DNA of 64,000 nucleotides from a virus: the UHGV virus genome UHGV-0236300. One strand, 5' to 3'. The notes under the pieces are model-generated. The model did not search any database. It worked only from the letters and a program-made list of their open reading frames with translations, and was not told the origin of the DNA. How positions within the stretch are numbered: position 1 is the first letter of the stretch; each line of letters begins with the position of its first letter. This document shows positions 3,833 to 55,882 of this stretch, one piece after another. A program made the translations under genes and the position numbers.

Positions 3833-5176
3833 ATGAGTAAAACCAAATTAGAACTTACCTGGATAGGTAAGAACGAGCGCAAAAAGCTAGAGCCTCACAT
3901 TTTGTTAGAAGATTCGAGCAAGTCTTATTACGCCAGTAAAAAGGTGACCGAAAACGATATTTTTGATAATAAACTGATTTTTGGAGATAACTTACTGGCA
4001 TTGAAGGCACTAGAGCAAGAGTATGCAGGCAAAGTGAAGTGTGTTTACATAGACCCGCCATTCAATACCGGAAGGGATTTTGAGCACTACGATGATAGCC
4101 TGGAGCACTCCATTTGGCTGGGCTTAATGCGGGACAGATTAGAAATAATTCGTAATCTGCTAAGCGATGATGGAGTGATATTCGTTCACTTAGATGACTG
4201 CGAAATGGCTTATTTAAAAGTCTTGATGGACGAGATTTTTGGTCGTGCAAATCAGTTAAATACCATATCGATGACTACAAATTGCCCTTCAGGCTTTAAG
4301 GCAACAGGAACTACAGTTTTCTCCACAGCAAACTTTTTGCTTGTATATGCAAAAGATCGTACCAAGAAACCACTTAACAAAATCTATATACCTAAAGAGT
4401 ATGATACGGGATATAACAAATATCTATTAAACCCAGATGACCATTATAAAAGTTGGACGTGGTGCGGTATTGCCGATGCGTTTGCAAAGGCCAATGGCTA
4501 TAAAGATACAAAAGAAGCCAAGAAAAAACTGCCTGATACATTTGATGATGAATTAGCACAATTTGCAATTGATAATGCAGAACGTGTATTTCAATCCGTT
4601 GCAATTGGCGGTGGTGCCAAAATAAAGAGAAAAGAAACTATCGAGAAGTCAAAGAAAGATAGGGATAAGGTTTATGTACATCCAAATGAGGATGTCGAAG
4701 GCTTTTATATCGCAAATGGTAGGCAAATGGTCTTTTATTCCAATAGGCTTTTGGAAATTGACGGCAAGATGCAGCCTGCTGAACTAATAACTGATGTTTG
4801 GACTGACATTAGTTGGAATGGAATAGCAAATGAAGGCGGCGTTAGTTTCAAAAATGGAAAAAAGCCCGAAGCGCTTTTGAAGCGAATTTTCGAAATGTGT
4901 ACGCGAGAAGGAGATTTAGTCTTGGATTCATTCGGCGGTTCAGGAACTACTGCTGCCGTAGCTCACAAGATGAAAAGACGTTGGATCTCTGTCGAGTTAG
5001 GTGATCATTGTCATACCCATATCATCCCGCGCTTGCAAAAAGTGATCGATGGCAAAGATCAAAGTGGTATTTCTAAATCTGTAAACTGGCAAGGTGGCGG
5101 GGGCTTTCGCTATTACAAACTTGCCCCGAACTTAGTTATGAAAGATAAGCTTGACTCAGAAGAAGATTTAGAGTAA
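3833..5176 (+). CDS. DNA methyltransferase, beta-class amino-MTase (N6-adenine or N4-cytosine)
   Basis: Motif IV IDPPFNT precedes motif I VLDSFGGSGTT (beta-class order); SD AAGGAGA 10 nt upstream. Confidence 0.8.
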   Translation: MSKTKLELTWIGKNERKKLEPHILLEDSSKSYYASKKVTENDIFDNKLIFGDNLLALKALEQEYAGKVKCVYIDPPFNTGRDFEHYDDSLEHSIWLGLMRDRLEIIRNLLSDDGVIFVHLDDCEMAYLKVLMDEIFGRANQLNTISMTTNCPSGFKATGTTVFSTANFLLVYAKDRTKKPLNKIYIPKEYDTGYNKYLLNPDDHYKSWTWCGIADAFAKANGYKDTKEAKKKLPDTFDDELAQFAIDNAERVFQSVAIGGGAKIKRKETIEKSKKDRDKVYVHPNEDVEGFYIANGRQMVFYSNRLLEIDGKMQPAELITDVWTDISWNGIANEGGVSFKNGKKPEALLKRIFEMCTREGDLVLDSFGGSGTTAAVAHKMKRRWISVELGDHCHTHIIPRLQKVIDGKDQSGISKSVNWQGGGGFRYYKLAPNLVMKDKLDSEEDLE

Positions 5177-5235
5177 TATTTAAAATATCTAAGGGTAGGT
5201 CTACTCTTCACACAAGATAAGGAGAACACCAAACG

Positions 5236-5478
5236 ATGAAGCGTTATAAACCATACACTTTTGAAATCGATTTCGAACTTGACGATATGCTCACTGTAGA
5301 AGCTCAGGCAGTTGTCCAGTTGCCAGATCCGGAGTGCCGTGATTCTGATGTTGATTATTATGGATTTAGACAGATTACTGATGTGCATGTTTACCACACA
5401 ACGGAGAAGAGGTGGATTTTCACCAGTTACCAAACGATCTGCGCCACTCGATTTACAAACGTGCAGCACGTGAACTAG
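5236..5478 (+). CDS. hypothetical protein
   Basis: ORF with 5' leader nearly identical to that of the MTase at 3833 (TAAGGAGARCACCAAACGATG). Confidence 0.45.
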   Translation: MKRYKPYTFEIDFELDDMLTVEAQAVVQLPDPECRDSDVDYYGFRQITDVHVYHTTEKRWIFTSYQTICATRFTNVQHVN

Positions 5479-5539
5479 AGTCCTATCTGGATGCAGCGAC
5501 GACAGCGGCAGCATTTGCTGAAGAAGTAGGAGGCTTCTA

Positions 5540-5938
5540 ATGATTACAGATGTGAAGATTATCCAATACCACCTAACCAAATTAGAAGATGCTGAAAAAG
5601 AGCTTGCAGAAGTTCTGAACAGTGGGTATACTTTACTGACATGCTCCTGCTCAGACACATACATTGTGTGGACACTTGCTAAGAAGGAAGAGCCTGCATG
5701 GATCTTGGTGCCAAACCCAGAGATCGCTAGTGAAGTTGATGGCTACTCCCAAGATAACGGCTTGCCAGAAGGTTGGGAAGTGTGGGAAGGTGGTGAAAAC
5801 CCTGCACCAGGTAAGTGGGTAAAATACAAACTACGTAGCGGTGCACAGTATGCTGACTACTCTGATGACCTAGACTGGAGTCACTCTTCACCAGGATCAT
5901 CTGCAAGTGCATATGATATTGTTGCTTTTCAGGAATAA
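5540..5938 (+). CDS. hypothetical protein
   Basis: ORF with SD GGAGG upstream; no motif. Confidence 0.5.
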   Translation: MITDVKIIQYHLTKLEDAEKELAEVLNSGYTLLTCSCSDTYIVWTLAKKEEPAWILVPNPEIASEVDGYSQDNGLPEGWEVWEGGENPAPGKWVKYKLRSGAQYADYSDDLDWSHSSPGSSASAYDIVAFQE

Positions 5939-5950
5939 GGAGAGGGTGTT

Positions 5951-6433
5951 ATGTCAGATTTTATGTGGAAGGTAGGTTATGCCTCTCCTGAAATGTGTGA
6001 GGCTTGTTTTGTGAAAATAGGCCGCGAGGATATTGACAAAGTGATCCTTAAGTTTCGTGATGTGTCTGTAATCGGCAACCGAGTTCTTAAGCACTTAAAG
6101 AATCTGAAGCTCACCAAGAAGAAGTTCTTCGGACTTTTCGAAGAGAAAGTTGATGCTTGGACCCATTGCATTCAGGAAGCTAAATCTCACTACAGTGCTA
6201 TCGTTACTCCGGAACGGGTAGCCAAGATGGAAGGATTCATCAACAGCACGGAGTTTGAGTGCCTAAAGGCTGCCCTTGATAGCTATCCAAAGTGCCTCAA
6301 ACACCTTGACAAGTATGTAGAAAAGGATGGTGAAATGTATCTCACCCTGGACGCATACTATGAGATGCAAGAAATTTTAAATTTAGATTTGACATTGGTA
6401 TCCACCGAGTATACAATAGGTATCCGGGTTTAA
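5951..6433 (+). CDS. hypothetical protein
   Basis: ORF followed by a strong intrinsic terminator. Confidence 0.5.
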   Translation: MSDFMWKVGYASPEMCEACFVKIGREDIDKVILKFRDVSVIGNRVLKHLKNLKLTKKKFFGLFEEKVDAWTHCIQEAKSHYSAIVTPERVAKMEGFINSTEFECLKAALDSYPKCLKHLDKYVEKDGEMYLTLDAYYEMQEILNLDLTLVSTEYTIGIRV

Positions 6434-6439
6434 CACTAT

Positions 6440-6468
6440 GCCCTGCCCGAAAGGGTGGGGCTTTTTGC
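6440..6468 (+). terminator. rho-independent terminator (GAAA tetraloop hairpin + T5)
   Basis: GCCCTGCCC-GAAA-GGGTGGGGC stem-loop followed by TTTTT; near-identical copy at 17441. Confidence 0.7.
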
Positions 6469-6484
6469 ATTAGGAGACAGCAAA

Positions 6485-7249
6485 TTGAAATTTATCTACA
6501 AAGAACACTACCACAAAGGTGTCGTGTGGAGTCTATTTGACGGGTCTGGTGGTGCAGTTATTGACTGGGCAAAAGCTGGGTACCTGTGCCTGTGCTTTAA
6601 TGCAGAAGGTGCTGACCACGGTAGTTATGCAGAGGTGATAACCGATCATCCTAACATTCACTATGTGGATTATTGGATTGATCCATGGTTCCCTCAAGAA
6701 ACTTTTTGCATGTATCCAGCTCCAGACTTTATTCTTGCATTTCCTCCGTGCACGCATTTAGCAGTATCCGGAGCTGCACACTTTAAGAAAAAGCTGGCTA
6801 AGGACCCACTGATCCAAATTAATGCTGTGAAAGATGCTCGGGTTGCAGAAGAGTTGGGAGAGATTTATGATTGCCCGTGGCATGTAGAGAACCCTGTAGG
6901 AGTTATGTCAACACTGTGGCGAAAACCTGATTACCGTTTTCATCCTTCGGATTATGGTGGGTATCTACCAGAGGACGATGTAAACCCATGGTTTCCTGAA
7001 TTTATAGCTCCACGTGATGCCTACCCAAAAATAACTTGCGGTTGGATAGGCAATGGATTTATAATCCCCGCCACAAAACCTGTCCCGCAAATAGTTGATG
7101 TGGTTAGTGGTTATTCCATGCAACACGCTAAGCTAGGTGGAAAGAGTGCAAGGACGAAGATGATTCGAAGCCTTACACCACGTGGCTGGGCAAGAGCTGT
7201 ATTCTTAGCAAACGAGCCTGCAGTAAGGAGAAGAATTAATGGGCAGTAA
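6485..7249 (+). CDS. C5-cytosine DNA methyltransferase-like protein (divergent, short)
   Basis: FDGSGG (motif I-like), FPPCTHLAVSG (PCQ-like motif IV with Thr for Gln), ENPVGV (ENV-like motif VI); start uncertain (TTG 6485 after SD AGGAGA; track start 6455 lies inside the terminator hairpin). Confidence 0.5.
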   Translation: MKFIYKEHYHKGVVWSLFDGSGGAVIDWAKAGYLCLCFNAEGADHGSYAEVITDHPNIHYVDYWIDPWFPQETFCMYPAPDFILAFPPCTHLAVSGAAHFKKKLAKDPLIQINAVKDARVAEELGEIYDCPWHVENPVGVMSTLWRKPDYRFHPSDYGGYLPEDDVNPWFPEFIAPRDAYPKITCGWIGNGFIIPATKPVPQIVDVVSGYSMQHAKLGGKSARTKMIRSLTPRGWARAVFLANEPAVRRRINGQ

Positions 7250-9317
7250 ATTCATGGCATCTGCATACAACCGTTTCGGTGAGCCAAACCCGAAAGCAAC
7301 TAAGTATAAAAGTGGGGGAAGTGTGAAACGAGACTATCGTGATGAAAAAGAAGTTGAAACTGTAGAGACTGTTTTAGAAAATACTAAAATTGTCCCTGTT
7401 CCACAACAAAATATTGGACTGATGGCTGCACAATATTTTGGTGTACGATCATCGCTATCCCAAGAGGATGGTGTAACTGTTACTGCCACCTACTTTCCGT
7501 ATTATGACCGCTACGGTAATCTATCTGGCTTTAAAAAGCGGGACTGGACAATCCCTAAAGAGCAAAGGGGCCATTTCTCGGTTGTTGGCATAGTAAAGGC
7601 CAACTCCCAGATGTTTGGTCAAAAGCTGTGTGCATCCTCCAACAACCGCAAGCAGATTAACGTTTGTGAGGGGGAAGGAGATGTTATTGCAGCGTGGCAG
7701 GCTGCATATCAGGTACAAGTAAAAGGAATTCTCACCAATACTAAAGCCCCGGCGAAGGTGAAGCAGTGGGCTAAAGAAGTCCAGGATGGGATTGATGCAG
7801 TTATCAACGGCGGTGATCTGGCAGGAAAACCATGCCTGCCTTTTGTCGGAATTAACTGCGGGTGTGCAAACGCCGTAGACACTTTTGCGAACAATGAGAA
7901 ATTTATCCGTAGCTACGGAACAGTAGTCCTTGCAATGGACAACGATGCAGCTAACGAGGTAGAGAAGCAAAAACACGTTATCAAAGGTGTTGAAGCTACG
8001 CATAATATCGCAGCATTTTTGATGGCTGACAACGTTTACCACGTGGAATACCCAGGTGAGGTAAACGACCCTGATGGTGTAAAAGATATTCGTGACATGC
8101 TGAAGGCTAAAAAGCTGGAAGATATTGTCAACATGTTCCGTCACCCAGTCAAATATGTGCCTGATGCTGTATCTGATTTAGAAGACTTCTCCATTGAATC
8201 TCTTCGTAAGAAGACTTCCAATGGCGTGGATATCAGTGCAGAGTTCCCTAAACTGCAGAAGATGCTGAAAGGACTCCACAAAGGCACCTTGATGATGCTG
8301 ACAGGCCCGTCTGGCGGTGGTAAAACAACTGTAGCCAAGAAGCTGGAACATTGCATTGCAAGATACTTGATGGACCCAACATGCCCTAAAGCTGATGATT
8401 ATGAAGAGGATGATCGCCTGTGCCTGATTCACCTTGAAGAGGATCCTGAGGAAGCAATCAACTCTCTGTACGCTAACCAGCTGGGGTTTGATGTTAAAGA
8501 GTTTGTTGAAGACCCCAGTCAGTTCCTGACCGATCAGGAGCACGCTGAGATTCATCAATCTTGGGCCAAGGCCGGAAAAATCAAAGTGTTCAAGCATTTC
8601 GGCTCCATCCCTGTAGATGAGCTGATCACTAAGCTTAAACAAATGGTGTGCCTGTATCACTGCCGTTACATTGTGCTGGATCACTTGTCTATGGTGATTT
8701 CAGGGCTTAATGTTAAGGATGAGCGTAAAGAGCTTGACATGGCTATGACTCAACTAGCCGCGTTCTGTAAGCAGTTTAATGTGTTTATCTTGGTGATTGC
8801 TCACCTGAAGCGCACAGAGATTGTACCTCCGAAGGATAAGGATGGAAATCCGTTACCTTTCTGGTACCCTGTACGAAAAGAGAACCTTCGCGGTAGTGCC
8901 GGATTGGAGCAACTTAGCTGGGTGGTTGTCGGGGTAGAGGCAGAGGAGATGGTGGATCGTTCCCGTGGGCGTGTCCGGCTGGTAGGTCTTAAAAACCGCC
9001 CAGCAAAAACCTTAGGTATTGCGGACACTCTAGTTATGGATCCCCACACAGGCAAGTTCCACGATGCCAGCAATTGGTATTGGGATAAAGAGATGCAGAT
9101 GTTTACAGACGGGGAAGGTGGAGAGGTTGTTTGGAGACCTCAAGCTATGTTTGAGGATCAGGAGCATGCAGTTGTAGAAACACCTGTGGGCAAGGTTGTG
9201 GCTGATAAGGTTATAACTCCTGCTGTTAACCCTGTTGACACACAGGAAGATCTTCAGTATGATGATCCGTCCTCTAACCACGTTCCTGGTTTTGAAGACG
9301 ACGAAACACCTTTTTAA
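7239..9317 (+). CDS. bifunctional primase-helicase (toprim primase + DnaB-like helicase, T7 gp4-like)
   Basis: Toprim-like CEGEGD and MDNDAAN; helicase Walker A TGPSGGGKTT, Walker B IVLDHL, LVIAHLKR; acidic C-terminus ending DDETPF. Confidence 0.85.
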   Translation: MGSKFMASAYNRFGEPNPKATKYKSGGSVKRDYRDEKEVETVETVLENTKIVPVPQQNIGLMAAQYFGVRSSLSQEDGVTVTATYFPYYDRYGNLSGFKKRDWTIPKEQRGHFSVVGIVKANSQMFGQKLCASSNNRKQINVCEGEGDVIAAWQAAYQVQVKGILTNTKAPAKVKQWAKEVQDGIDAVINGGDLAGKPCLPFVGINCGCANAVDTFANNEKFIRSYGTVVLAMDNDAANEVEKQKHVIKGVEATHNIAAFLMADNVYHVEYPGEVNDPDGVKDIRDMLKAKKLEDIVNMFRHPVKYVPDAVSDLEDFSIESLRKKTSNGVDISAEFPKLQKMLKGLHKGTLMMLTGPSGGGKTTVAKKLEHCIARYLMDPTCPKADDYEEDDRLCLIHLEEDPEEAINSLYANQLGFDVKEFVEDPSQFLTDQEHAEIHQSWAKAGKIKVFKHFGSIPVDELITKLKQMVCLYHCRYIVLDHLSMVISGLNVKDERKELDMAMTQLAAFCKQFNVFILVIAHLKRTEIVPPKDKDGNPLPFWYPVRKENLRGSAGLEQLSWVVVGVEAEEMVDRSRGRVRLVGLKNRPAKTLGIADTLVMDPHTGKFHDASNWYWDKEMQMFTDGEGGEVVWRPQAMFEDQEHAVVETPVGKVVADKVITPAVNPVDTQEDLQYDDPSSNHVPGFEDDETPF

Positions 9318-14459: not shown

Positions 14460-14462
14460 TAC

Positions 14463-39069: not shown

Positions 39070-39271
39070 GATAATTATACATCAGCGCCGCACCACCCAA
39101 AATGGCTACCAGCAGTAATACCCCAGAGAGCATTTCAATAAACATGGCTTGAAACATTAGAAGGCCCCCTCTAATTTCACGCACCATTTTAAATACATAT
39201 TCTTTTCCCATAAAGGTGCCCGGCTAAGATCTGTGTAGAACGCAATCTCTTTAAGAACAGTATAAACAGTT

Positions 39272-39508
39272 TTAGGTGCGGTATCCATCCCTACTCTCCT
39301 TTTTCTCCTTACGGGTATTCTTGTAGTAATCAACCAGACACATTATTACGATGAAGACAACCACAGGCCAAAAAGGTGCAGCAGTGATGATGGTGATAAA
39401 ATCATCAAACTTCACCCTTCGTGTAGACACGATGCATATACCTGTCAAGATTACTGCTGTTATAACAGCTACTACTAGGTAACCTATTAGCACAGCATTT
39501 ATACTCAT
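39272..39508 (-). CDS. small two-TM membrane protein with charged C-terminal tail (holin-like topology)
   Basis: Two hydrophobic segments (LIGYLVVAVITAVILTGICIV; ITAAPFWPVVVFIVIMCLV) and a Lys/Arg/Glu-rich C-terminus. Confidence 0.45.
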   Translation of the reverse strand: MSINAVLIGYLVVAVITAVILTGICIVSTRRVKFDDFITIITAAPFWPVVVFIVIMCLVDYYKNTRKEKKESRDGYRT

Positions 39509-39526
39509 TGGCTCCTCCTTCGTAGG

Positions 39527-40072
39527 TTAAATTGTGCACTTCAGGTGGTTGTCGATGGTGTCAAGAAAATTATCCCGTTCTTTCTCAGAGTTTTCACGGA
39601 TGTAGCTGAAAAACATATCTAGAATAACCTTATTGATATATTCCAACTCCTCTGTGTTCAAGTACTTAGCAGGATCTACAATGACATCCCAAGTATCATA
39701 CAGACCGCACTCATGATACCCCCAACGCCGCTCAATTGTCAAACTGATCGGCAAATCTTTACCGTCACAAACAACCCTCCATCTACAGATACTGGTATCT
39801 GGGCGTACCTGTGCACGGTATACCTGTACAAAATCCAATTTGAATTTGAGGTACTCGTCATACAATTTAAGCACAAAGCTCTCGATTTGTGGAGACACTT
39901 TTGCAGCAAACTGTGCGTATTTGTACTTGCACTGGATGATCTTTCTGCGTTTTGCAGTTAAATTTTTTGCAGCCAGTTGTTCTTCAGTGTACCTCCACCT
40001 ACGATCAACAAACGCAACAGGGTCTTTGTCCCCATAGAGGTCTTCCCAGTTAATCAGAAGCATACCTGTCAC
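39527..40072 (-). CDS. hypothetical protein
   Basis: ORF; no motif. Confidence 0.55.
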   Translation of the reverse strand: MTGMLLINWEDLYGDKDPVAFVDRRWRYTEEQLAAKNLTAKRRKIIQCKYKYAQFAAKVSPQIESFVLKLYDEYLKFKLDFVQVYRAQVRPDTSICRWRVVCDGKDLPISLTIERRWGYHECGLYDTWDVIVDPAKYLNTEELEYINKVILDMFFSYIRENSEKERDNFLDTIDNHLKCTI

Positions 40073-40302
40073 TCCTCCACAACTTCAAGGCCTTTACCGC
40101 CTCGCTCTGGCAGATTGCCTAAAGATAGGTAATACGTATAATCAGGAGAGATCCTACCAGACTCTGCACCTGCAGCTAGTAAATATTTTCCCTTAACCAT
40201 GACAACATTATCGTTTGCAGATAGCCGTTTTGCTTCCACAATTTTACCAACGCAGTCAACCAAGGAAGGGTACCCTAAATCTGTAAGAAATTTAACTTTC
40301 AT
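40069..40302 (-). CDS. hypothetical protein (paralog family A)
   Basis: MKVKFLTD... and KYLLAAGAESG resemble family A. Confidence 0.55.
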   Translation of the reverse strand: MKVKFLTDLGYPSLVDCVGKIVEAKRLSANDNVVMVKGKYLLAAGAESGRISPDYTYYLSLGNLPERGGKGLEVVEE

Positions 40303-40341
40303 GCTACCTCCTACTTCTACCGTCCCTGGTAAGATAAATTA

Positions 40342-40740
40342 TTACTGAACAGAGCGCGGAGCTGGGAAGGATAACTCTTCTAAAGAGAATATTTCATTTC
40401 CCACAATCCATGTTGCCGGATCATCCGGGTTGACTGGATAGATAATCATCACCTCATCAGTGTTACATACCCGCTTTTTACCTGTGGAGTTATCAGCAAC
40501 TAGCATGCGAGGCTCTTCAGAGATACACAGGTATCCGCCACGTCCAACTGTCCCTTCTACAGGGTCCTGACCTTTTATTACGATGAATATCTTCTCTCCT
40601 GAGGTGATATTACCTTGCACACTTACCGTTTGACCAACCTTGGATGTACCAATCTTAGTGACTTCGAACATTACATCACGGATAACTGTTGCATAGTTAC
40701 CAGAGACTTTCTTACCTTCTTCAGTAATCTCAATCTTCAT
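40342..40740 (-). CDS. hypothetical protein
   Basis: ORF; no motif. Confidence 0.55.
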   Translation of the reverse strand: MKIEITEEGKKVSGNYATVIRDVMFEVTKIGTSKVGQTVSVQGNITSGEKIFIVIKGQDPVEGTVGRGGYLCISEEPRMLVADNSTGKKRVCNTDEVMIIYPVNPDDPATWIVGNEIFSLEELSFPAPRSVQ

Positions 40741-40976
40741 AATCTAGGCTCCTTAAATGAATCTATATAGTCAATTAAATCCCAAGCATCCCTATGACCT
40801 GTCAGAGGGTATACTTCTCCAAGAGGGATCATAGCAATAAGCCTATCAAAAACCCAGTCTGGACGCAACATTTTATGATGATATTCCCACTCACCTTCCA
40901 CAGATTTTTTCTGAGTGATCAGAATCTCTGTGTAGTGTTTTGCCTGTCTTGAGTAAATTGAAAATGACTTATACAT
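40737..40976 (-). CDS. hypothetical protein
   Basis: ORF coupled to the downstream gene. Confidence 0.5.
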   Translation of the reverse strand: MYKSFSIYSRQAKHYTEILITQKKSVEGEWEYHHKMLRPDWVFDRLIAMIPLGEVYPLTGHRDAWDLIDYIDSFKEPRL

Positions 40977-41013
40977 AGATGACCCCCCCTCTTGTTGAAA
41001 ACAAAATACACTA

Positions 41014-41298
41014 CTACCAGGTCACTGTCAAGTAGGCAACTGTGTTATTTTTCTCCGGGGAGATGCCAACAACATCCACCCGCAGACCTCCTGCCCTCAA
41101 ATCCCCAACGATGTGTGGGAAGTAGTCTGAGAGGTGTGATGGAAGATTTATCGAAAATCCGCATCCCAGAAAGCCTGCTAACGCCTTATTTTGTATCTCC
41201 CCTACAATCGCATCATAAATGGAGTTAAGCTCGTCAGGGAGAGTTACAGGACGTTTTAGCGCTAACTGGTGCAACTTGTCCTTAGCACTCATTTTCAT
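41014..41298 (-). CDS. hypothetical protein
   Basis: Track ORF 41014..41367; likelier start is the internal ATG forming an ATGA overlap with the MTase stop. Confidence 0.45.
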   Translation of the reverse strand: MKMSAKDKLHQLALKRPVTLPDELNSIYDAIVGEIQNKALAGFLGCGFSINLPSHLSDYFPHIVGDLRAGGLRVDVVGISPEKNNTVAYLTVTW

Positions 41299-41828
41299 TT
41301 CAAGTCTGCCTCCGGAGGTGCCAACCACATAAATGGTGGTAGGTCTAAACGGTTCTTCTTGTCCCACACAAAATATGCATATGCTTGCCCGTCAGTTCTG
41401 CCATTAGATTGGAATGATGGACGCTTAGATATTGTGATCACAGTGGTAGGGGCATTATCAAGCCACCATTCAAATCTGGCCTTGCTTTCCAGAAAATTAA
41501 GACGCAAAAGCATAATAACTACGTCAGCATCTTTCAACGCCTTGTCCACAAACTCACGAGCCAGGCTGTACGGCGGGTTGGTGATAATACAGTCAACATG
41601 GTTGTATTCCGTATTCAGATAGTCAACACCTTCTTGGATTTCTCCCCATGCAGATCCTAACGGCATACGGGAGTAGAATACACCTGAGGCGCTATTCCTG
41701 CAAGGCTCCAAATAGGTCCAATCTTCTGGGAACGGAATGAGGTTATACAACCCTTCTGCACACCACTCTGGTGTCACATATTCATCATAGGCGTTACGTT
41801 GTTCGTCAGGTTTTCTAGCACAAGTCAT
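41295..41828 (-). CDS. small DNA N6-adenine methyltransferase (phage Dam-like)
   Basis: Catalytic motif IV ITNPPYS; small size (177 aa) as in phage T1-type Dam proteins. Confidence 0.6.
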   Translation of the reverse strand: MTCARKPDEQRNAYDEYVTPEWCAEGLYNLIPFPEDWTYLEPCRNSASGVFYSRMPLGSAWGEIQEGVDYLNTEYNHVDCIITNPPYSLAREFVDKALKDADVVIMLLRLNFLESKARFEWWLDNAPTTVITISKRPSFQSNGRTDGQAYAYFVWDKKNRLDLPPFMWLAPPEADLK

Positions 41829-41840
41829 GCAAATCTCCAG

Positions 41841-41865
41841 ATCATAAAAGCCCTCCGAAGAGGGC
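41841..41865 (-). terminator. rho-independent terminator (minus strand)
   Basis: On the minus strand GCCCTC-TTCG-GAGGGC followed by TTTTATGAT, directly after the ClpP-like gene stop. Confidence 0.6.
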
Positions 41866-41879
41866 TTTAAGATTAATGT

Positions 41880-42929
41880 TTAAGCTTCTTCGACAATTCC
41901 TGCGCCCAGGATTTTTTCATTGAGCTCTTTTGCTGTTTTAATAATATTGTCAACCAGACGCTTGCGGGTCTTATCTTTAACCTGAACTTCTTCACCTCCG
42001 TTCAGGGTGGTTTTCAATTGGGACAAAATGTCCTGAAGCTCTACCACAGAGAATCGCTGCAGATCTTCCGAGGTAATCTCACCCAGTGCAATCTTAACGG
42101 TCTCACCACTCTCCATCTGCAGATTCAGGAACACAGTGTGAACATCACCTTTCATACCATTTGCTTTTGCAGACTCAACAGCATGAACCAGCTCGTCCAG
42201 AGATGTGCATTGGTGAATCTCTGGCAAACCTGCTTCACCTAGCACACCTTCTTCATCACTTTTTGCCAAAAGCTTTTTCGGTTTCTGTCCATTCTGAATG
42301 TGCTGAATGTTTTCATCGTCCAGAATGATAGCACCAGTTCGAGATGCCAGCTCTTCTCCATCCAACCACACTTCGCCACCAGCTGTGATGGATGCGATCT
42401 CATCTTCTGTCAGAACCCCACCGTAGTATTTTTCAATCAGGCGTTCAAAACGTTTCTTCCAGTAGTTAACCTGGGTATTCATGTTCACACCGTTGCCATA
42501 GGTGCCACCTTGATAGTAGTGGAACATAAACTCTGTGTCCGGAGCCACAGTTCGTTCTTTGCACCCCAGCCATAAGATTGTTCCTGCTGAGCAGCACATC
42601 CCTTCAGCGTGTACAACAACGCTTGCCTGAGACTCGCGAAATGCCTGCAAATACGCCATAGCAATGTGAACGCAACCACCAGGGCTGTTAATGATTACAC
42701 GGATACTTTCTTCTGGCTGTGCCATACGAATTGTTTGCAAACGTGACATATGATCCTGCAAGTCTTCAAGATCGTCAATATAAAGGACGTGGTCAACAAC
42801 TGGCGTTGGGTAGCTATATGTTTCCATAATACCACCAGGCATACCGAACATTTTATTACTCATCGGTTCGAAGCCGTTCTGTTTTTCTTTCATACCGTGT
42901 ACCATGGTGCTACGAGGTGTTAAATTCAT
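41880..42929 (-). CDS. ClpP-family serine protease-like protein with C-terminal extension
   Basis: INSPGG motif, candidate catalytic Ser in GMCCSAG and His in FMFHYY; ~150-aa acidic C-terminal extension; start uncertain. Confidence 0.65.
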   Translation of the reverse strand: MNLTPRSTMVHGMKEKQNGFEPMSNKMFGMPGGIMETYSYPTPVVDHVLYIDDLEDLQDHMSRLQTIRMAQPEESIRVIINSPGGCVHIAMAYLQAFRESQASVVVHAEGMCCSAGTILWLGCKERTVAPDTEFMFHYYQGGTYGNGVNMNTQVNYWKKRFERLIEKYYGGVLTEDEIASITAGGEVWLDGEELASRTGAIILDDENIQHIQNGQKPKKLLAKSDEEGVLGEAGLPEIHQCTSLDELVHAVESAKANGMKGDVHTVFLNLQMESGETVKIALGEITSEDLQRFSVVELQDILSQLKTTLNGGEEVQVKDKTRKRLVDNIIKTAKELNEKILGAGIVEEA

Positions 42930-42990
42930 GTGAGGTCCTTAATGTTGGAAAGTTAAAAGCGATCTATTTAAACCTGATTATCATTTACCT

Positions 42991-43302
42991 TTATTTAGCA
43001 ATTACCATGGAATACTTACAATTGTCAGAAGCATCACAGGTCAACGATTGCCAGTCTACAACATACCACGTATCATTGTCAACAATTACTTTATCGCCTG
43101 TTCTGTAAAAGGTGTTGCTTTCAATAACACGAGACTCAGTGAAGAATCGGTGTCTCCGCTCACGCAGTAGTGCTAAGTTGATTATATTACCACCGCTGTC
43201 CTTAATCCACACATTCTTGTATCCTTTGTTTGCCAAAATTGTCTCGCCGTTATAGACAAATAGGCAGTATATTTTATTCAGTCTCTCTTGTATTGTAGCC
43301 AT
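42991..43302 (-). CDS. hypothetical protein
   Basis: ORF; no motif. Confidence 0.5.
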   Translation of the reverse strand: MATIQERLNKIYCLFVYNGETILANKGYKNVWIKDSGGNIINLALLRERRHRFFTESRVIESNTFYRTGDKVIVDNDTWYVVDWQSLTCDASDNCKYSMVIAK

Positions 43303-43401
43303 ACTGTCATTCTCCTTGCCTTGTTCGATAATATCTAAAACTTATCCGTTTGTCAACAATTGTTTTAGGTATTTAAGGGTGGAATAAACCACCCTTTTGT
43401 A

Positions 43402-44190
43402 TTACTCGGAAACAGGGGTCCAAATATGATTTGCACGATCCTCAATGAGATTGAGTGCAATCTGACGACCCAACCCGGAACGAACAACATCGTCTGGACT
43501 ATCAAAGCTGATCATTCCGACCTCAGGATCTGGATGGCGAGTAAAGAAATCCGTAACCCACGCAAGGCCAGATTTACCAGGAATGTCACGTTGGCTGTTA
43601 TCGCCCATAATTACAAGGGTTGCCTGATCAGAGATCCTTGTGATGATTGACAACATCTCTTCAGGGTTGGTTTGCTGTGCTTCATCAATAAGGACAAAGC
43701 ATCGTTCATCAAAACTACGACCACGAATGCTTTCAACCTCACAAATCTCGATACGGCTGTTCTGACCATCCCCAAGCATTGCTGCAAAAGCACCTTTGCC
43801 GACACGTTTGCAAATCGTGTCCATCATACTGCGAAGGTAAGGCCACAGTTTCTGCATTGCATTTCCAGGTTTAAATCCTGAAGTCTTTCCTGTTTGAACG
43901 TAAGGGCGTGCAACAATGATCTTATCAATCTCGTTCTTACGCAAAAGATCACCTGCATATGCGGATGCCATGAATGTCTTACCGGATCCAAACACACCGT
44001 TTACAATAATAATCTTACGCGATCCTAGATAATCAAGATACTTTTGCTGCTTTTTGTTCATTGGTCTAAGAGCTGGAGCTGTGTGCTCTCGTTCGTCAGC
44101 AAATTTCTCAGCAGCCTTACGCAGGCGATCAGATTTGCGAGCCTCTCTGGCTTCATCACGCATGCGTTTTGTTTCTTTAGCTCGACCCAT
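43402..44190 (-). CDS. phoH: PhoH-like ATPase
   Basis: Walker A GVFGSGKTF, Walker B-like VLIDEAQ; PhoH family architecture. Confidence 0.8.
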   Translation of the reverse strand: MGRAKETKRMRDEAREARKSDRLRKAAEKFADEREHTAPALRPMNKKQQKYLDYLGSRKIIIVNGVFGSGKTFMASAYAGDLLRKNEIDKIIVARPYVQTGKTSGFKPGNAMQKLWPYLRSMMDTICKRVGKGAFAAMLGDGQNSRIEICEVESIRGRSFDERCFVLIDEAQQTNPEEMLSIITRISDQATLVIMGDNSQRDIPGKSGLAWVTDFFTRHPDPEVGMISFDSPDDVVRSGLGRQIALNLIEDRANHIWTPVSE

Positions 44191-47797: not shown

Positions 47798-47800
47798 ATA

Positions 47801-51472: not shown

Positions 51473-51482
51473 CTTCACCACC

Positions 51483-51944: not shown

Positions 51945-52042
51945 ATCTGTCTCCCTTTCTGGCTCACCAACAAAGTGAGCCACTATTATAGATTATCTAA
52001 TGCTATTAGTCAACACAAAAGTTACCTATCGCTGTGATAGGC

Positions 52043-53226: not shown

Positions 53227-53227
53227 T

Positions 53228-53821
53228 TCAAATACCTTCTAAAAACTTCCCTATTTTATACCAGCTGTTAGCGGTATAGTCAACACTAACCTTCAACTCC
53301 TCGAATTGCTCATAAGGAGTGTCTTTTAAGATTTTAATAACTTCAGGGCGTGAAGCGAATTGGTTCAGGTATTCATGCCTGTCGTCAATTATAACATCTA
53401 CAGCCACATTACCTTTGAAATGTGTGGCGTAGAAGCCGTGACCCTGGGTGTGATCGTCCAGATCCATAAAATCGCTGGTCCAACGCTTTAAGAACCTTGA
53501 TTTAGATGCAAGGTGACCTTTCTTGCATACAGAGATAAATGCAAGCTTGTGACCACGAGCCACCAAATCTTTCATAACCTCAATAGCCCCCTCTTCAGGC
53601 TTAAGAAAGTCGTAGAGGAACGGGTCACTCCAGAAATCAAAAGGTCCTATGATGTTTTCTTTGGGGCGATCAGGCCAATACTTTGACAGATCGTAATACA
53701 TCAGCCCGTTAGAAGGTTTAGCAACTGTCTTGCTGGCTGGACCATATAAACGCTCTAGCCACTCCCACCATGCTGTTCCTGAGTCTACCAGTGTTAAATC
53801 TACATCAATTCCGATCAGCAT
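53228..53821 (-). CDS. HAD-family phosphatase (putative 5'(3')-deoxyribonucleotidase)
   Basis: N-terminal IGIDVDLTLVDS (DxDxT HAD motif I); sits between thyX and a dNMP kinase. Confidence 0.5.
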   Translation of the reverse strand: MLIGIDVDLTLVDSGTAWWEWLERLYGPASKTVAKPSNGLMYYDLSKYWPDRPKENIIGPFDFWSDPFLYDFLKPEEGAIEVMKDLVARGHKLAFISVCKKGHLASKSRFLKRWTSDFMDLDDHTQGHGFYATHFKGNVAVDVIIDDRHEYLNQFASRPEVIKILKDTPYEQFEELKVSVDYTANSWYKIGKFLEGI

Positions 53822-53826
53822 TGTTC

Positions 53827-54429
53827 TCAGACCTCTTTAGCATCAATATACTTGCACACAATCTCAGATGCGCACTCCCAAGGAGACCCCTCAGGGTTAA
53901 CAACATCAAACTCGATACCTTTTATCCCGTTCTTCTCTAGGCTAAGGTAAGTTCTGGAATCATTCCCCCAATCATACCCTGCACGGTGGATACGGAACAG
54001 TAGAAGATCACCACCTGTGCTGTATGCGTACTCGCCAAGGCATGCCAGCTCCTCTTTGAAGCCACCATCGGAGTAAACAACAACCCCTTTACCTTCAGGG
54101 AAATCTTTCTTCAAGGATGCTACTGCGGCCTTACCGAAAGCGTCTTCACCAAAGATAGGTTTAATCAGATTTTCACTACAATGGATCATCCATTCTCGCG
54201 GAGAAACATGCTTGCCGTCTATCATTAAGAACGGGCACGGTTCTTCTTTGTAGCGGCGATCATAGAGTGCATTCCACAACTGTGGTGAAATACCAGCTGC
54301 CTTAATTGCCACACTGAATAGCATTTCCTTTACCTCGCGGTGATGCGAGTTTGGAATGGCTTCCAACAAAAGATCTGCGATATGGTCTTTTCCAGAACTT
54401 GGTGGAGCATTAAGAACAATAATATCCAT
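53827..54429 (-). CDS. deoxynucleoside monophosphate kinase (T4 gp1-like)
   Basis: MDIIVLNAPPSSGKDHIADLL parallels T4 gp1 MKLIFLSGVKRSGKDTTADFI (P-loop). Confidence 0.6.
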   Translation of the reverse strand: MDIIVLNAPPSSGKDHIADLLLEAIPNSHHREVKEMLFSVAIKAAGISPQLWNALYDRRYKEEPCPFLMIDGKHVSPREWMIHCSENLIKPIFGEDAFGKAAVASLKKDFPEGKGVVVYSDGGFKEELACLGEYAYSTGGDLLLFRIHRAGYDWGNDSRTYLSLEKNGIKGIEFDVVNPEGSPWECASEIVCKYIDAKEV

Positions 54430-54632
54430 TAAAAACCTCCGTGGTATTCTTCAACTGCATCAATAATACTTTTACACTTATCTACCAGCTCGTTAGCCAC
54501 TACAGCATCGTCTTCCCAAACAGCCTCCTCAATCTGGTCAAGCAGTGATCGCATCTTTCCCATCATTTCTGGAATAAAGCTTTCTGAAAAGCTGTCTGGG
54601 ATTGTTAACTCTGGTGTCATTGCGGTCTCCAA
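54429..54632 (-). CDS. hypothetical acidic protein
   Basis: Short ORF coupled to its neighbours. Confidence 0.45.
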   Translation of the reverse strand: METAMTPELTIPDSFSESFIPEMMGKMRSLLDQIEEAVWEDDAVVANELVDKCKSIIDAVEEYHGGF

Positions 54633-54647
54633 TCATACTGTGCGTTA

Positions 54648-55088
54648 TTAGAAGTTTGTTTTTACACGTCCCTTTTCATCTACTTCGTTGTTAGCTAAAA
54701 GCGTTACAAAGTCTGTAAAACGAACATGAAGAACTCTTTTCTTATCTAGGTATCCTAAAGCCACACCTGAGAAATTTACCATCAAAGGGGCTAAAGAAGC
54801 TCTGGCACTGAGATGTTGCTGTTCCACTCTTCCAACACCTTTAGTATAAGAAGGGTTGAGATTGTAAGTTCTGAATCCAAGTTTTGTTGGAGCTTTAGAA
54901 TTAAAAACAACTTTATAACGTTTCTTACTCAGCTTATGTTCCAGAATAAGCATCCCCTTTTCACCACGGATAAGCTGAAAATCTGTAAAATGCTCTTTTA
55001 AGACAAAAGGTAGTGCCAGGCCCATAGCCTGCCCCCTTTGCACAGCTGTCTCACCAAAAGCTTTTGCATCAGTAAGCTCTTTAGTCAA
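54648..55088 (-). CDS. hypothetical protein
   Basis: ORF; no motif. Confidence 0.5.
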   Translation of the reverse strand: MTKELTDAKAFGETAVQRGQAMGLALPFVLKEHFTDFQLIRGEKGMLILEHKLSKKRYKVVFNSKAPTKLGFRTYNLNPSYTKGVGRVEQQHLSARASLAPLMVNFSGVALGYLDKKRVLHVRFTDFVTLLANNEVDEKGRVKTNF

Positions 55089-55090
55089 GT

Positions 55091-55882
55091 CTATAGATCA
55101 TACCTGGTCTCCAAAATGTATTGTAGTTCTTTCTTGCCTATACTCTTCATTCCAGCAGTCTTACCTGCTTCTTCTTGAAAAGAAGAATAGCATTCAGCAA
55201 ACACTCTGTCAACACCGTCAACTAAAGATTTTATGAAATATGTTGATTCTTCAGATTTTGGGTCATCATCCCCCAATACTTTTCCAGCATTATACCCAAC
55301 ACGTCTTATGCAGAAGTCGTAGTCATCTGGTGTACTAAAAGAAAATAGCTTATTCTCCCCAATCTCTACAGGATCCCTATTGCACACCTTTTTCTCCCAA
55401 ATTTGGAAAACACATGGCACGTCATAAGGTTTGCCGTTGAGTAAAAACGAGTTCTTGGGGCACCTTTCACTGTAAATAAGGTGCATCGACATGTCCAGTT
55501 TGTTTGCAAAAAATATTTTTTCAAATGTCCGTGGCAAGATGAAGGCTATAGCCCCACCAGGCTCTAGCAATGATGCGCAGTGGTTAAAAAACTTGCAAGC
55601 TAAAGACGAATTTTTGCCGAATGGGGGATTACCTATGAAGACATCAGCCTTAGGGTACACCTCTAAGAAGTCTGCCTTAATACACGGTGTTGGGCCTTCA
55701 AATTCAGGATCTGGTACCAAATCGTACGACAGTATCTCTGAAAATAGTTTTGAAAAAGAACCCTTTCCAGCAGAAGGCTCAACGTATGCACAACTCCCAT
55801 ACTTACCTTTTACTTTACCAACAAGATATTCTGCATACTCAGGGTCTGTGTAATATTTGTCGTTGGACTCTTTCTTGCTCAA
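55091..55882 (-). CDS. DNA N6-adenine methyltransferase (gamma-class)
   Basis: YYTDPEYAEYLV, motif I VEPSAGKGSF before motif IV IGNPPFG (gamma order). Confidence 0.7.
   Translation of the reverse strand: MSKKESNDKYYTDPEYAEYLVGKVKGKYGSCAYVEPSAGKGSFSKLFSEILSYDLVPDPEFEGPTPCIKADFLEVYPKADVFIGNPPFGKNSSLACKFFNHCASLLEPGGAIAFILPRTFEKIFFANKLDMSMHLIYSERCPKNSFLLNGKPYDVPCVFQIWEKKVCNRDPVEIGENKLFSFSTPDDYDFCIRRVGYNAGKVLGDDDPKSEESTYFIKSLVDGVDRVFAECYSSFQEEAGKTAGMKSIGKKELQYILETRYDL

What the first reader, a model, noticed from the sequence alone, without database searches (positions are those of the whole stretch)
3833..55882. Four DNA methyltransferases of different classes and no cognate restriction endonuclease
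There is a beta-class amino-MTase (3833-5176), a short C5-MTase-like protein (6485-7249), a small Dam-like NPPY enzyme (41295-41828) and a gamma-class N6A MTase (55091-55882). None has an adjacent restriction-endonuclease-like ORF. This looks like a multi-specificity self-methylation strategy against host restriction, or epigenetic marking of phage DNA.
Basis: partly seen in the sequence, partly recalled or inferred. Interest (0 to 1): 0.6.

Follow-up and report, generated by a model that had tools for sequence, protein, structure and literature searches.

The report
Four phage DNA methylases, already known
This stretch of an rV5-like E. coli phage does carry four different DNA-methylating enzymes, but they are already annotated in over a hundred sister phages, one has been tested experimentally, and they do not make these phages generally resistant to bacterial restriction enzymes.

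Summary
The window is about half of a Vequintavirus (rV5-like) genome, 95-98% identical to published phages. All four ORFs are real, intact and under strong purifying selection.

- A (3833-5176) is a type III Mod-like beta-class N6-adenine methyltransferase (MTase) with no Res partner.
- B (true start TTG 6485, to 7249) is a compact C5-cytosine MTase by motifs and predicted fold, with no Pfam hit.
- C (41295-41828) is 99% identical to the Bas51 enzyme shown experimentally to make GATC m6A. It is not a Dam-family member.
- D (55091-55882) is a gamma-class type II MTase. Its relatives elsewhere sit next to type II restriction enzymes.

Published Bas51 data show a second, C-independent m6A motif, GTAC, about 99% methylated. 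I assign it to D by inference.

The claim that no neighbour is endonuclease-like is not quite right. The 146-aa ORF directly after D (54648-55088) is a conserved but catalytically dead homologue of those restriction enzymes.

A broad anti-restriction role is not supported. Sister phages are reported as exceptionally susceptible to the six R-M systems tested. Narrow, site-specific protection remains plausible but untested.

Verdict: already known, ordinary, with one small new lead.

The parts
3833..5176 (+). MTase A: orphan type III Mod-like, beta-class N6-adenine DNA methyltransferase (447 aa). It sits between a RecD/Dda-like helicase and small ORFs of unknown function in the replication module.
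   Evidence: Pfam N6_N4_Mtase 8e-43. PADLOC MTase_III 7e-205, covering profile positions 2-445 of 575. PDB sequence hits to an H. pylori Mod (6k0w, 1e-28) and EcoP15I Mod (4zcf, 2e-23). DPPF at 74 and FGGSG at 367. dN/dS 0.06-0.08. No Res-like gene in the annotated sister genomes.
6485..7249 (+). MTase B: compact C5-cytosine-MTase-like protein (254 aa, TTG start). Its 3' end overlaps the start of the primase/helicase gene by 11 nt.
   Evidence: PHROG 757 at 6e-87. No Pfam hit for this protein, but homologues P0053 and P0067 pass the PF00145 cut-off. Family-invariant PPC and ENP, and near-invariant FDGSG. AF2 pLDDT 89.8; top PDB matches are DNMT3A/3B catalytic domains (E 1e-6, TM about 0.5) and the CP-933R prophage MTase 3g7u. 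SD plus TTG start. dN/dS 0.02-0.08.
41295..41828 (-). MTase C: minimal 177-aa N6-adenine MTase specific for GATC, next to the ClpP-like protease gene.
   Evidence: 99.4% identical to the Bas51 orthologue. It is the only window MTase with D69, D79 and T83, the positions mutated in the published retron escapers. PMC12548924 reports that T83P abolishes GATC m6A (1405 to 35 sites), that the enzyme is toxic, and that it triggers retrons Asa1 and Squ1. PHROG 799 at 9e-67. dN/dS about 0.01.
55091..55882 (-). MTase D: gamma-class type II N6-adenine MTase (263 aa, NPPF). It is the most probable author of the GTAC m6A seen in Bas51.
   Evidence: PADLOC MTase_II 1.9e-33. AF2 pLDDT 92.9; PDB matches include M.BseCI, CamA, M.TaqI and also TrmN. 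Family invariants D8, T12, EP-G-F, D54 and GNPPFG. Relatives in bacteria, phages and giant-virus MAGs lie directly next to REase_II-type genes. GTAC is the most depleted 4-bp palindrome in 5 of 7 groups of loci carrying this family, against rank 7 of 16 in control loci.
54648..55088 (-). p146: conserved 146-aa partner of D. It is a catalytically inactivated homologue of the type II restriction endonuclease family that accompanies D-type MTases elsewhere.
   Evidence: It starts 2 nt after D's stop codon. PHROG 9938, function unknown. hmmsearch against the partner profile gives E 3e-5. hhalign of its family against the REase family gives 95.5%, E 1.4e-8 over 116 columns. The REase family hits PADLOC REase_II PDLC03550 at 3e-18 to 6e-11, and p146 does not. 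E, D and (D/E)xK are conserved in 23-24 of 24 REase members and replaced by P, V/L and K/R in all or nearly all of the 10 p146-type members, while PS.TKG.GR is kept. dN/dS 0.04-0.07. It co-occurs with D in about 120 Vequintavirus and about 64 Phapecoctavirus-type records, in swapped gene order in the latter.

Best explanation
The window is part of an rV5-like Vequintavirus genome. It encodes four solitary DNA methyltransferases from four unrelated families. All sit in the replication and nucleotide-metabolism modules, so they are probably made while phage DNA is being copied (inferred). They modify progeny DNA almost to completion.

- Shown in a 99%-identical orthologue: C writes m6A at GATC on both strands.
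- Shown: a second phage-dependent m6A mark at GTAC exists and does not depend on C.
- Inferred: D, a gamma-class type II enzyme descended from an R-M pair, writes GTAC.
- Inferred: A, a Res-less type III Mod, writes an asymmetric site hidden among the roughly 350 'other' m6A calls.
- Inferred: B writes 5-methylcytosine at an unknown site.

There is no active cognate endonuclease. The ORF after D is a dead restriction-enzyme homologue kept under selection. The likeliest benefit is narrow. Progeny DNA would be pre-protected against R-M systems that recognise exactly these sites in the phage's broad host range. For GATC, full methylation is something host Dam cannot supply at phage replication speed. 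This is not a general anti-restriction shield.
For: Identity of the window: 95-98% nucleotide identity to published Vequintavirus genomes.

MTase nature of the four ORFs.

Experimental GATC assignment: the Bas51 escape mutations D69G, D79G and T83P fit only ORF C.

Methylation levels in Bas51 virion DNA, from S4 Table counts set against my site counts in MZ501111:
- GATC 1405 of 1406 adenines in wild type, 35 of 1406 in T83P.
- GTAC 509 of 516 in wild type, 511 of 516 in T83P.

The near-total loss of GATC methylation in T83P occurred although the published methods name only ordinary laboratory E. coli strains, presumably dam+. This shows host Dam does not keep up.

D as a DNA MTase descended from an R-M pair, and its link to GTAC. 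M.HpyAXII, a proven GTAC m6A enzyme, is likewise a gamma-class, M.TaqI-like protein with its NPPY asparagine at residue 87 (PMC2588503).

The 349 residual 'other' sites fall within the range for one asymmetric 5-mer in Bas51 (median 264 occurrences, 10-90% range 120-445).

All genes are under purifying selection, with dN/dS 0.006-0.085.
Against: The BASEL paper reports these phages as exceptionally sensitive to all classes of R-M system tested, so any protection is at best site-specific.

Mutants of C plate as well as wild type on K-12 without a retron. The enzyme is therefore dispensable in the laboratory.

GTAC is itself depleted in the phage (O/E 0.59-0.61). That would be unnecessary if methylation fully protected these sites.

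The D-to-GTAC and A-to-'other' assignments are inferences. Bas51 carries both A and D, so the published data cannot separate them.

No 5mC data exist for B. B matches no R-M-derived MTase model.

D's fold also matches tRNA methylases such as TrmN. JGI names some D homologues 'predicted RNA methylase'.
Confidence: 0.72

Rival explanations
1. The methylation mainly serves the phage's own DNA transactions rather than defence against host restriction. Candidate roles are avoiding MutH nicking at unmethylated or hemimethylated GATC, marking DNA for packaging or replication timing, or regulating transcription.
For: These phages are not protected from the R-M systems tested. Phage Dam enzymes have such roles elsewhere, for example P1 Dmt at pac sites (reviewed in PMC12707154). 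The MTase genes lie inside replication modules.
Against: GATC and GTAC sites are spread evenly with no significant clusters in 64 kb. C-null phages give the same titres on K-12. Four different specificities are hard to explain by one internal role.
Confidence: 0.18
2. At least one of A, B or D is not an active DNA methyltransferase on phage DNA. It could be an RNA methylase, be inactive, or act on another substrate, so the phage has fewer than four DNA specificities.
For: Only two discrete m6A motifs were reported for a phage with three adenine-MTase-like genes. D's top fold hit is the tRNA methylase TrmN, and some homologues are named 'predicted RNA methylase'. B has no Pfam, NCBIfam or PADLOC hit, and I could not find a canonical QxRxR motif VIII by eye. 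A is missing from about a quarter of Vequintavirus records (87 records against about 120).
Against: All catalytic motifs are intact and under strong purifying selection. D-family genes sit in R-M operons. A matches a type III Mod model at 7e-205. The 349 unexplained m6A sites leave room for a third motif.
Confidence: 0.25
3. D plus the downstream 146-aa ORF is a working restriction-modification system. The phage would use it to degrade unmethylated host or rival-phage DNA, as chloroviruses and marseilleviruses do.
For: The two genes are adjacent (2-nt gap), conserved together in two genera, and homologous to MTase-REase pairs found in bacteria and giant viruses. GTAC is depleted in the phage genome. 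Precedent exists in giant viruses (PMC7253447).
Against: Every position of the E...D...(D/E)xK signature that is conserved in 23-24 of 24 REase-type members is substituted in the p146 subgroup: P in 9 of 10, hydrophobic or small residues, and K/R in 10 of 10. No acidic residue is conserved in the p146 family. p146 does not reach the PADLOC REase_II model.
Confidence: 0.05

Closest known systems
Phage solitary Dam-type methylases (T4/T2 Dam, P1 Dmt, and the small T1/HP1-type phage Dam of Pfam PF05869)
   Same: They are phage-encoded, have no endonuclease partner, and methylate GATC adenines on progeny DNA. C does exactly this in Bas51. A few remote C homologues carry a precomputed PF05869 hit.
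   Different: C scores below the curated cut-offs of PF05869 (19.3 against 28.1 bits) and TIGR01712. Only about 33 residues separate motif I from NPPY, and there is no recognisable target-recognition domain in 177 aa. It is more closely related to D (both hit PHROG 799) than to Dam.
Type III R-M modification subunits (EcoP15I Mod, EcoP1I Mod, H. pylori Mod 6k0w)
   Same: A shares the beta-class motif order, the Pfam domain and strong profile similarity. Mod subunits are known to methylate without Res (established knowledge).
   Different: No Res gene is present anywhere in the annotated sister genomes. A covers only positions 2-445 of the 575-position model and is 447 aa long, against 618-644 aa for the solved Mod proteins. 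Its target site is unknown. It does not protect sister phages from the type III systems tested, EcoP1_I and EcoCFT_II.
Gamma-class type II GTAC adenine methylases (M.HpyAXII; also M.CviQI and M.PabI) and M.TaqI
   Same: D has an M.TaqI-like N-terminal catalytic domain with the NPP(F/Y) asparagine at residue 85, against 87 in M.HpyAXII. Family members are paired with small type II endonucleases. GTAC m6A is present on sister-phage DNA.
   Different: I could not obtain the M.HpyAXII or M.CviQI sequences, so homology to them is untested. D's GTAC specificity rests on site depletion and on elimination. D's endonuclease partner is catalytically dead.
C5-cytosine DNA methyltransferases (PF00145; DNMT3 catalytic domain, M.HhaI, E. 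coli Dcm)
   Same: B has motif I (FDGSG), the catalytic Pro-Cys, an ENV-like ENP motif and the overall fold. BASEL annotators call its orthologue 'Dcm-like'.
   Different: B has no Pfam hit of its own and only about 70 residues where the target-recognition domain should be. I saw no clear QxRxR motif. Activity and site are untested. Its family is very widespread in enterobacterial phages (1481 phage records).
Viruses that stack several solitary methylases (giant viruses such as pandoraviruses and molliviruses; Drexlerviridae; Bacillus phages with multispecific MTases)
   Same: They carry several orphan MTases of different origin on one viral genome. These are interpreted as self-defence against R-M systems with matching sites (PMC7253447; PMC12707154).
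   Different: Here the enzymes are four separate small genes rather than one multispecific protein. Direct phenotyping of sister phages shows high rather than low R-M sensitivity.

Membership tests
Beta-class amino-MTase / type III Mod (ORF A) | Pfam N6_N4_Mtase domain above the gathering score, with motif IV (DPPY/F) N-terminal to motif I (FxGxG) | tested here: met
   147.3 bits against a cut-off of 26.7. DPPF at 74 and FGGSG at 367. PADLOC MTase_III 7e-205.
Beta-class amino-MTase / type III Mod (ORF A) | Partner Res (helicase-nuclease) subunit encoded alongside | tested here: not met
   The neighbours are a 456-aa RecD/Dda-like helicase and small ORFs of unknown PHROGs. No Res-like product appears in the full annotations of NHEP1 and Bas51.
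Beta-class amino-MTase / type III Mod (ORF A) | Methylates one strand of a short asymmetric site | not testable with these tools
   The only hint is the 349 unexplained m6A sites in the Bas51 T83P mutant. That number lies within the range for one asymmetric 5-mer.
C5-cytosine DNA MTase, PF00145 (ORF B) | Pfam DNA_methylase hit above the gathering score | tested here: not met
   No hit for the window protein even at E 0.1. Homologues at 56-58% identity do pass (24.7 and 28.5 bits against a cut-off of 22).
C5-cytosine DNA MTase, PF00145 (ORF B) | Motif I FxGxG, motif IV catalytic Pro-Cys, motif VI ENV glutamate | tested here: met
   FDGSG at 18, PPC at 87 and ENP at 135. P87, P88, C89, E135, N136 and P137 are invariant in 30 family members.
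C5-cytosine DNA MTase, PF00145 (ORF B) | C5-MTase fold | tested here: met
   The AF2 model (pLDDT 89.8) has DNMT3A/3B catalytic domains as its top PDB hits (probability 1.00, E about 1e-6, TM about 0.5), plus 3g7u.
C5-cytosine DNA MTase, PF00145 (ORF B) | Motif VIII QxRxR and a target-recognition domain between motifs VIII and IX | tested here: inconclusive
   By eye, 'DYGGYL' aligns with the start of motif VIII but no QxRxR follows. About 70 conserved residues occupy the TRD position. No residue-level structural superposition was available.
C5-cytosine DNA MTase, PF00145 (ORF B) | 5-methylcytosine produced in DNA | not testable with these tools
   The published Bas51 nanopore analysis called only 6mA.
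Dam family (ORF C) | Profile membership in Pfam Dam (PF05869) or NCBIfam phage_N6A_met | tested here: not met
   PF05869 scores 19.3 bits against a cut-off of 28.1. TIGR01712 scores 16.4 against 97.
Dam family (ORF C) | N6 methylation of adenine in GATC | tested here: met
   This rests on published experiment, not on my own test. T83P in the 99.4%-identical Bas51 orthologue reduces methylated GATC adenines from 1405 to 35 of 1406.
Gamma-class type II N6A MTase (ORF D) | Motif order X-I-II-III-IV with NPP(Y/F), followed by a C-terminal recognition domain | tested here: met
   DxxYT at 8-12, EPSAGKGSF at 35-43, D54, D71 and GNPPFG at 84-89 are invariant or nearly so. A beta-rich C-terminal half spans residues 130-263 in the model. 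PADLOC MTase_II 1.9e-33.
Gamma-class type II N6A MTase (ORF D) | Acts on DNA as part of R-M systems (family level) | tested here: met
   Across the loci searched, dozens of neighbouring ORFs match the two partner profiles (40 and 31 hits). The closest sit directly beside the MTase (gaps of -16 to +36 nt) in the same or opposite orientation, and representatives match PADLOC REase_II models.
Gamma-class type II N6A MTase (ORF D) | GTAC specificity | tested here: inconclusive
   GTAC O/E is 0.36-0.54 and ranks 1-2 of 16 in the viral and REase-linked D-family loci, against 0.81 and rank 7 in control loci. C-independent GTAC m6A exists in Bas51. A is also present there, so it cannot be excluded.
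Solitary (orphan) MTase | No functional cognate restriction endonuclease encoded nearby | tested here: met
   A, B and C have neighbours of unknown function with no nuclease signature. D's neighbour is an REase homologue lacking the E/D/(D/E)xK residues. This is a prediction from sequence only.
PD-(D/E)XK type II restriction endonuclease (p146, 54648-55088) | Homology to a recognised REase family | tested here: met
   hhalign gives 95.5%, E 1.4e-8 against the family that hits PADLOC REase_II PDLC03550.
PD-(D/E)XK type II restriction endonuclease (p146, 54648-55088) | Catalytic E...D...(D/E)xK residues | tested here: not met
   The aligned positions are P27, L47 and K59 in the window protein, with a gap at the lysine column. 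The same replacements occur throughout the 10-member p146 subgroup.

The most novel reading that the evidence does not exclude
The 146-aa ORF after D is an exapted, nuclease-dead restriction enzyme. Two phage genera (Vequintavirus and Phapecoctavirus) and several uncultured phages keep it next to their GTAC-type methylase because it still reads the same DNA site. It might recruit or regulate the methylase, or shield unmethylated sites from host GTAC-specific restriction enzymes or glycosylases before methylation catches up.
Probability: 0.3. Interest if true: 0.55.

Novelty: already known. Interest (0 to 1): 0.3.

Why it matters
Vequintaviruses are among the most frequently isolated E. coli phages and are candidates for therapy and biocontrol. 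Their methylation pattern decides which restriction systems, methylation-dependent nucleases and retrons will act on them.

This check links the window's genes to existing experiments: GATC m6A by the 177-aa enzyme, and a second, fully penetrant GTAC m6A mark that nobody has yet assigned. It shows that having many methylases does not mean being restriction-proof. It also offers two cheap, testable assignments: D writes GTAC, and A writes a roughly 5-bp asymmetric site.

The dead restriction-enzyme homologue next to D is a small new observation about how R-M modules decay or are repurposed in phages.

Tried and rejected
1. Separating A from D as the GTAC enzyme through Bas51 gene content. I identified Bas51 as WalterGehring (MZ501111) from its locus tags, but it carries both genes.

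2. Finding a characterised close relative of D.
- A PDB sequence search gave only weak M.TaqI hits.
- Foldseek against PDB and BFVD gave generic gamma-class MTases or unnamed viral proteins.
- The AFDB50 library was not available.
- Literature on M.CviQI and giant-virus methylomes gave no usable sequence or assignment.
- PF26055, precomputed on many D homologues, is absent from the local Pfam copy, so I could not name it. From memory it may be an EDM2-type MTase domain; this is unverified.

3. Naming the two partner endonuclease families. Pfam, NCBIfam and PDB sequence searches found nothing. Only PADLOC recognised them, as REase_II. The 218-aa and 163-aa partner families are unrelated to each other (hhalign probability below 1%).

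5. Looking for GATC or GTAC clusters as regulatory or pac-like marks. None was significant.

6. A possible fifth methylase. Phage NHEP1 annotates a 'DNA methyltransferase' in the head module, outside this window. That protein has no MTase motifs by eye, and BASEL annotates the same position as prohead protease.

7. Inferring B's target from palindrome depletion in B-family loci. Only the usual enterobacterial CTAG and GGCC depletion appeared.

8. The 64-kb window holds no further MTase or Res-like gene according to the NHEP1 annotation.

Full report
WHAT THE WINDOW IS. Three separate stretches of the window match more than 100 GenBank phage records at 90-98% nucleotide identity. Nearly all are Escherichia phages of the genus Vequintavirus (rV5-like myoviruses of about 137 kb). 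The closest are ECP26, NHEP1, S127 BCL3, B9-1 and FV3. In those records the four ORFs are already annotated, under varying names: adenine methyltransferase, type III Mod, Dcm-like C5 methyltransferase, DNA N6-adenine methyltransferase. The finding therefore concerns known genes of a well-studied phage group.

CHECKING THE OBSERVATION. All four ORFs exist at the stated coordinates.

ORF A (3833-5176, 447 aa) is a clear beta-class amino-methyltransferase.
- It hits Pfam N6_N4_Mtase at 8e-43.
- DPPF at residue 74 precedes FGGSG at 367.
- PADLOC MTase_III scores 7e-205.
- Its best solved relatives are type III Mod subunits: 6k0w at 1e-28 and EcoP15I Mod at 2e-23.

ORF B has no Pfam, NCBIfam or PADLOC hit.
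- It belongs to a very large phage family: 4176 database hits at E up to 0.001 and 1481 phage records.
- Some members of that family pass the Pfam C5-methylase threshold.
- PPC and ENP are invariant across 30 family members, and FDGSG is nearly so.
- Its AlphaFold model (pLDDT 89.8) finds DNMT3A/3B catalytic domains first.
It is a TTG preceded by GGAG. The longer GTG 6455 start lies inside a terminator-like hairpin.

ORF C (177 aa, NPPY) reaches only sub-threshold Pfam scores for EcoRI_methylase and Dam. It matches PHROG 799 strongly.

ORF D (263 aa, EPSAGKG then NPPF) is gamma-class.
- PADLOC MTase_II scores 1.9e-33.
- Its model (pLDDT 92.9) matches M.BseCI, CamA and M.TaqI, and also tRNA methylases.

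All four genes, compared with their BASEL or NHEP1 orthologues, show dN/dS of 0.006-0.085.

WHAT EXPERIMENTS ALREADY SAY. A 2025 PLoS Biology paper (PMC12548924) selected Bas51 mutants that escape two retrons. It found mutations D69G, D79G and T83P in an 'N6 adenine methyltransferase'. The enzyme is toxic when expressed alone. Native nanopore sequencing showed GATC m6A, which T83P abolishes.

Of the window's four proteins, only C has D69, D79 and T83. I identified Bas51 as phage WalterGehring, MZ501111, from its locus tags. Its C orthologue is 99.4% identical to the window's C, and the co-mutated 'glycosidase' has R87 as published.

The paper's source data give the numbers of methylated adenines:
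- Wild type: GATC 1405, GTAC 509, other 576.
- T83P: GATC 35, GTAC 511, other 349.

I counted 703 GATC and 258 GTAC sites in MZ501111, which is 1406 and 516 adenines. GATC is therefore 99.9% methylated in wild type and 2.5% in the mutant. GTAC is about 99% methylated in both.

Two conclusions follow. First, host Dam does not keep up with phage replication, so the phage enzyme does the work. Second, a further phage enzyme fully methylates GTAC. From general knowledge, E. coli K-12 has no GTAC methylase. The authors did not assign this second motif.

WHICH ENZYME WRITES GTAC? Bas51 carries A, B, C and D, so its gene content cannot decide between A and D. I favour D, with probability about 0.65, for three reasons.

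(i) The proven GTAC adenine methylase M.HpyAXII is a gamma-class, M.TaqI-like enzyme with its catalytic asparagine at residue 87 (PMC2588503). D has the same layout, with N85.

(ii) D's family behaves as the methylase of type II R-M pairs. I examined 160 loci from bacterial genomes, phages and giant-virus MAGs. The gene next to the D homologue, in the same or opposite orientation and often overlapping by a few bases, recurrently belongs to one of two small protein families. Both families match PADLOC type II restriction-enzyme models: PDLC03550 at 3e-18 to 6e-11, and PDLC03460 at 8e-11.

(iii) GTAC is the most depleted of the 16 four-base palindromes in five of seven groups of these loci. O/E is 0.36-0.43 with z of -7.5 to -11.6 in the viral groups, and GTAC ranks 2-3 in the other groups. 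In 74 control phage loci chosen through the unrelated B family, GTAC has O/E 0.81 and ranks seventh. The control differs in taxonomy, so this is supporting evidence rather than proof.

Type III Mod enzymes normally methylate one strand of an asymmetric 5-6-bp site. The 349 residual 'other' sites fall within the range for one such 5-mer in Bas51 (median 264 occurrences, 10-90% range 120-445). That makes A a reasonable candidate for a third, unreported motif.

IS THERE REALLY NO ENDONUCLEASE? For A, B and C the flanking ORFs match only unknown-function PHROGs. No Res-like or type II REase-like product appears in the complete annotations of NHEP1 or Bas51. Those genomes list only homing or HNH endonucleases, endonuclease VII and exonucleases.

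D is different. Two bases after its stop codon begins a 146-aa ORF (54648-55088), PHROG 9938, function unknown.
- This ORF matches the profile of the 163-aa REase-type partner family (E 3e-5 among nine neighbour proteins).
- A profile-profile comparison of its own family (10 sequences, six of them from viral or MAG contigs where they lie directly beside a D-type methylase) against the REase family (24 sequences) gives 95.5% probability, E 1.4e-8, over 116 columns.
- The REase family conserves E, D and (D/E)xK in 23-24 of 24 members. This is the classic PD-(D/E)XK arrangement.
- The p146 subgroup has P, V/L/S and K/R at those positions in essentially every member. It keeps the shared PS.TKG.GR motif. 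No acidic residue is conserved in it.
- p146 is nevertheless under purifying selection (dN/dS 0.04-0.07).
- It travels with D in about 120 Vequintavirus and about 64 Phapecoctavirus-type records. In the latter the gene order is reversed.

I read D plus p146 as a former R-M pair whose nuclease has been disarmed but retained. What p146 does now is unknown.

WHAT THE METHYLASES ARE FOR.

The BASEL study phenotyped twelve such phages against two type I, two type II and two type III systems. It found them 'exceptionally susceptible', seemingly lacking 'any effective protection'. So the four enzymes are not a broad shield, and the type III Mod-like A does not protect against EcoP1_I or EcoCFT_II.

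None of the tested systems recognises GATC or GTAC. Narrow protection against MboI/DpnII-type or RsaI/Csp6I/PabI-type systems therefore remains the most economical explanation, but it is untested.

Two points argue against a localised regulatory role. Sites are spread evenly (1-kb variance/mean 0.86 for GATC), and the densest clusters are not significant.

GATC occurs at its expected frequency (O/E 1.01 in the window, 0.98 in Bas51). GTAC is depleted (0.61 and 0.59). This suggests past or present selection by GTAC-cutting enzymes despite methylation.

Methylation also has costs. The C enzyme triggers retrons. Fully methylated GATC would, in principle, expose the DNA to methyl-dependent nucleases.

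COMPARISON AND NOVELTY. Solitary methylases are commonplace in phages and giant viruses, often several per genome (reviews and studies cited). This window is another isolate of a genus in which all four genes are annotated and one is characterised. The finding as stated is therefore already known.

This check adds four things:
- the link from ORF C to the published GATC enzyme;
- the quantification showing a second, unassigned, fully penetrant GTAC mark;
- a reasoned assignment of that mark to D;
- the recognition that D's neighbour is a nuclease-dead restriction-enzyme homologue.

Only the last is a mildly novel lead.

LIMITS. The catalytic-residue argument for p146 rests on alignment, anchored by a conserved aromatic residue immediately before the (D/E)xK position. 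The specificities of A, B and D are unproven. The GTAC depletion test has an imperfect control.

Noticed in passing
window 54648-55088 (-): A 146-aa ORF lies 2 nt downstream of methylase D. It is homologous to the type II restriction enzymes that partner D-type methylases elsewhere, but all PD-(D/E)XK catalytic positions are replaced. It is conserved under purifying selection and linked to D in two phage genera.
   Followed up: yes
window 6438-6484 (+): A G+C-rich hairpin followed by a T run (gccctgcccgaaagggtggggcttttt) sits between the 160-aa ORF and methylase B. It looks like an intrinsic terminator. It contains the GTG at 6455 that a mechanical ORF call would take as B's start. The real start is TTG 6485, after a GGAG.
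   Followed up: partly
whole window; also Bas51 genome MZ501111: GTAC (O/E 0.61 in the window, 0.59 in Bas51) and CTAG (0.60, 0.56) are the most depleted 4-bp palindromes, while GATC is at expectation. Several 6-bp palindromes are absent although about 8 copies are expected: CGATCG and TGGCCA, both 0 observed.
   Followed up: partly
window 3833-5176 (ORF A), compared across GenBank phages: A is found at 90% identity or more in only 87 phage records, against about 120 for B, C, D and p146. The type III Mod-like gene therefore seems to be accessory within the genus. Its next relatives (37-40% identity) are in genuine Campylobacter phages of the CP81 group.
   Followed up: partly
GenBank records MG0656xx matched by window 3000-9000, 39000-44000 and 53500-58000: About 16-21 records labelled 'Campylobacter phage' with host Campylobacter jejuni are more than 90% identical to this E. 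coli Vequintavirus across the stretches searched. They are probably mislabelled or come from contaminating coliphages.
   Followed up: no
window 39527-40072 (-): This is the orthologue of the Bas51 'putative glycosidase', whose R87* mutation co-occurs with methylase mutations in retron escapers and relieves Retron-Asa1 defence. It holds the densest GTAC cluster in the window (5 sites in 300 bp), which is not significant after correction.
   Followed up: partly
L248:6021-6593 (phage NHEP1, outside the window): NHEP1 annotates a 190-aa 'DNA methyltransferase' in the head-gene module. The protein has no methylase motifs by eye, and BASEL annotates the same position as prohead protease, so this is probably a mis-annotation and not a fifth methylase.
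   Followed up: partly
ORFs C (41295-41828) and D (55091-55882): C and D both match PHROG 799. They share the N-terminal D..Y(V/Y)TP motif, an EP..G..F motif I and NPP(Y/F). They look like distant paralogues, with C being essentially the catalytic core without D's C-terminal beta-rich domain. How a 177-aa protein reads GATC is unexplained.
   Followed up: no
D-family loci L004-L163 (bacteria, phages, giant-virus MAGs): The D-type methylase family is common in giant-virus MAGs and in Sphingomonas and Paracoccaceae genomes. It pairs with two unrelated small endonuclease families of about 218 aa and about 163 aa. Many homologues carry a precomputed hit to Pfam PF26055, which is absent from the Pfam copy available here.
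   Followed up: partly
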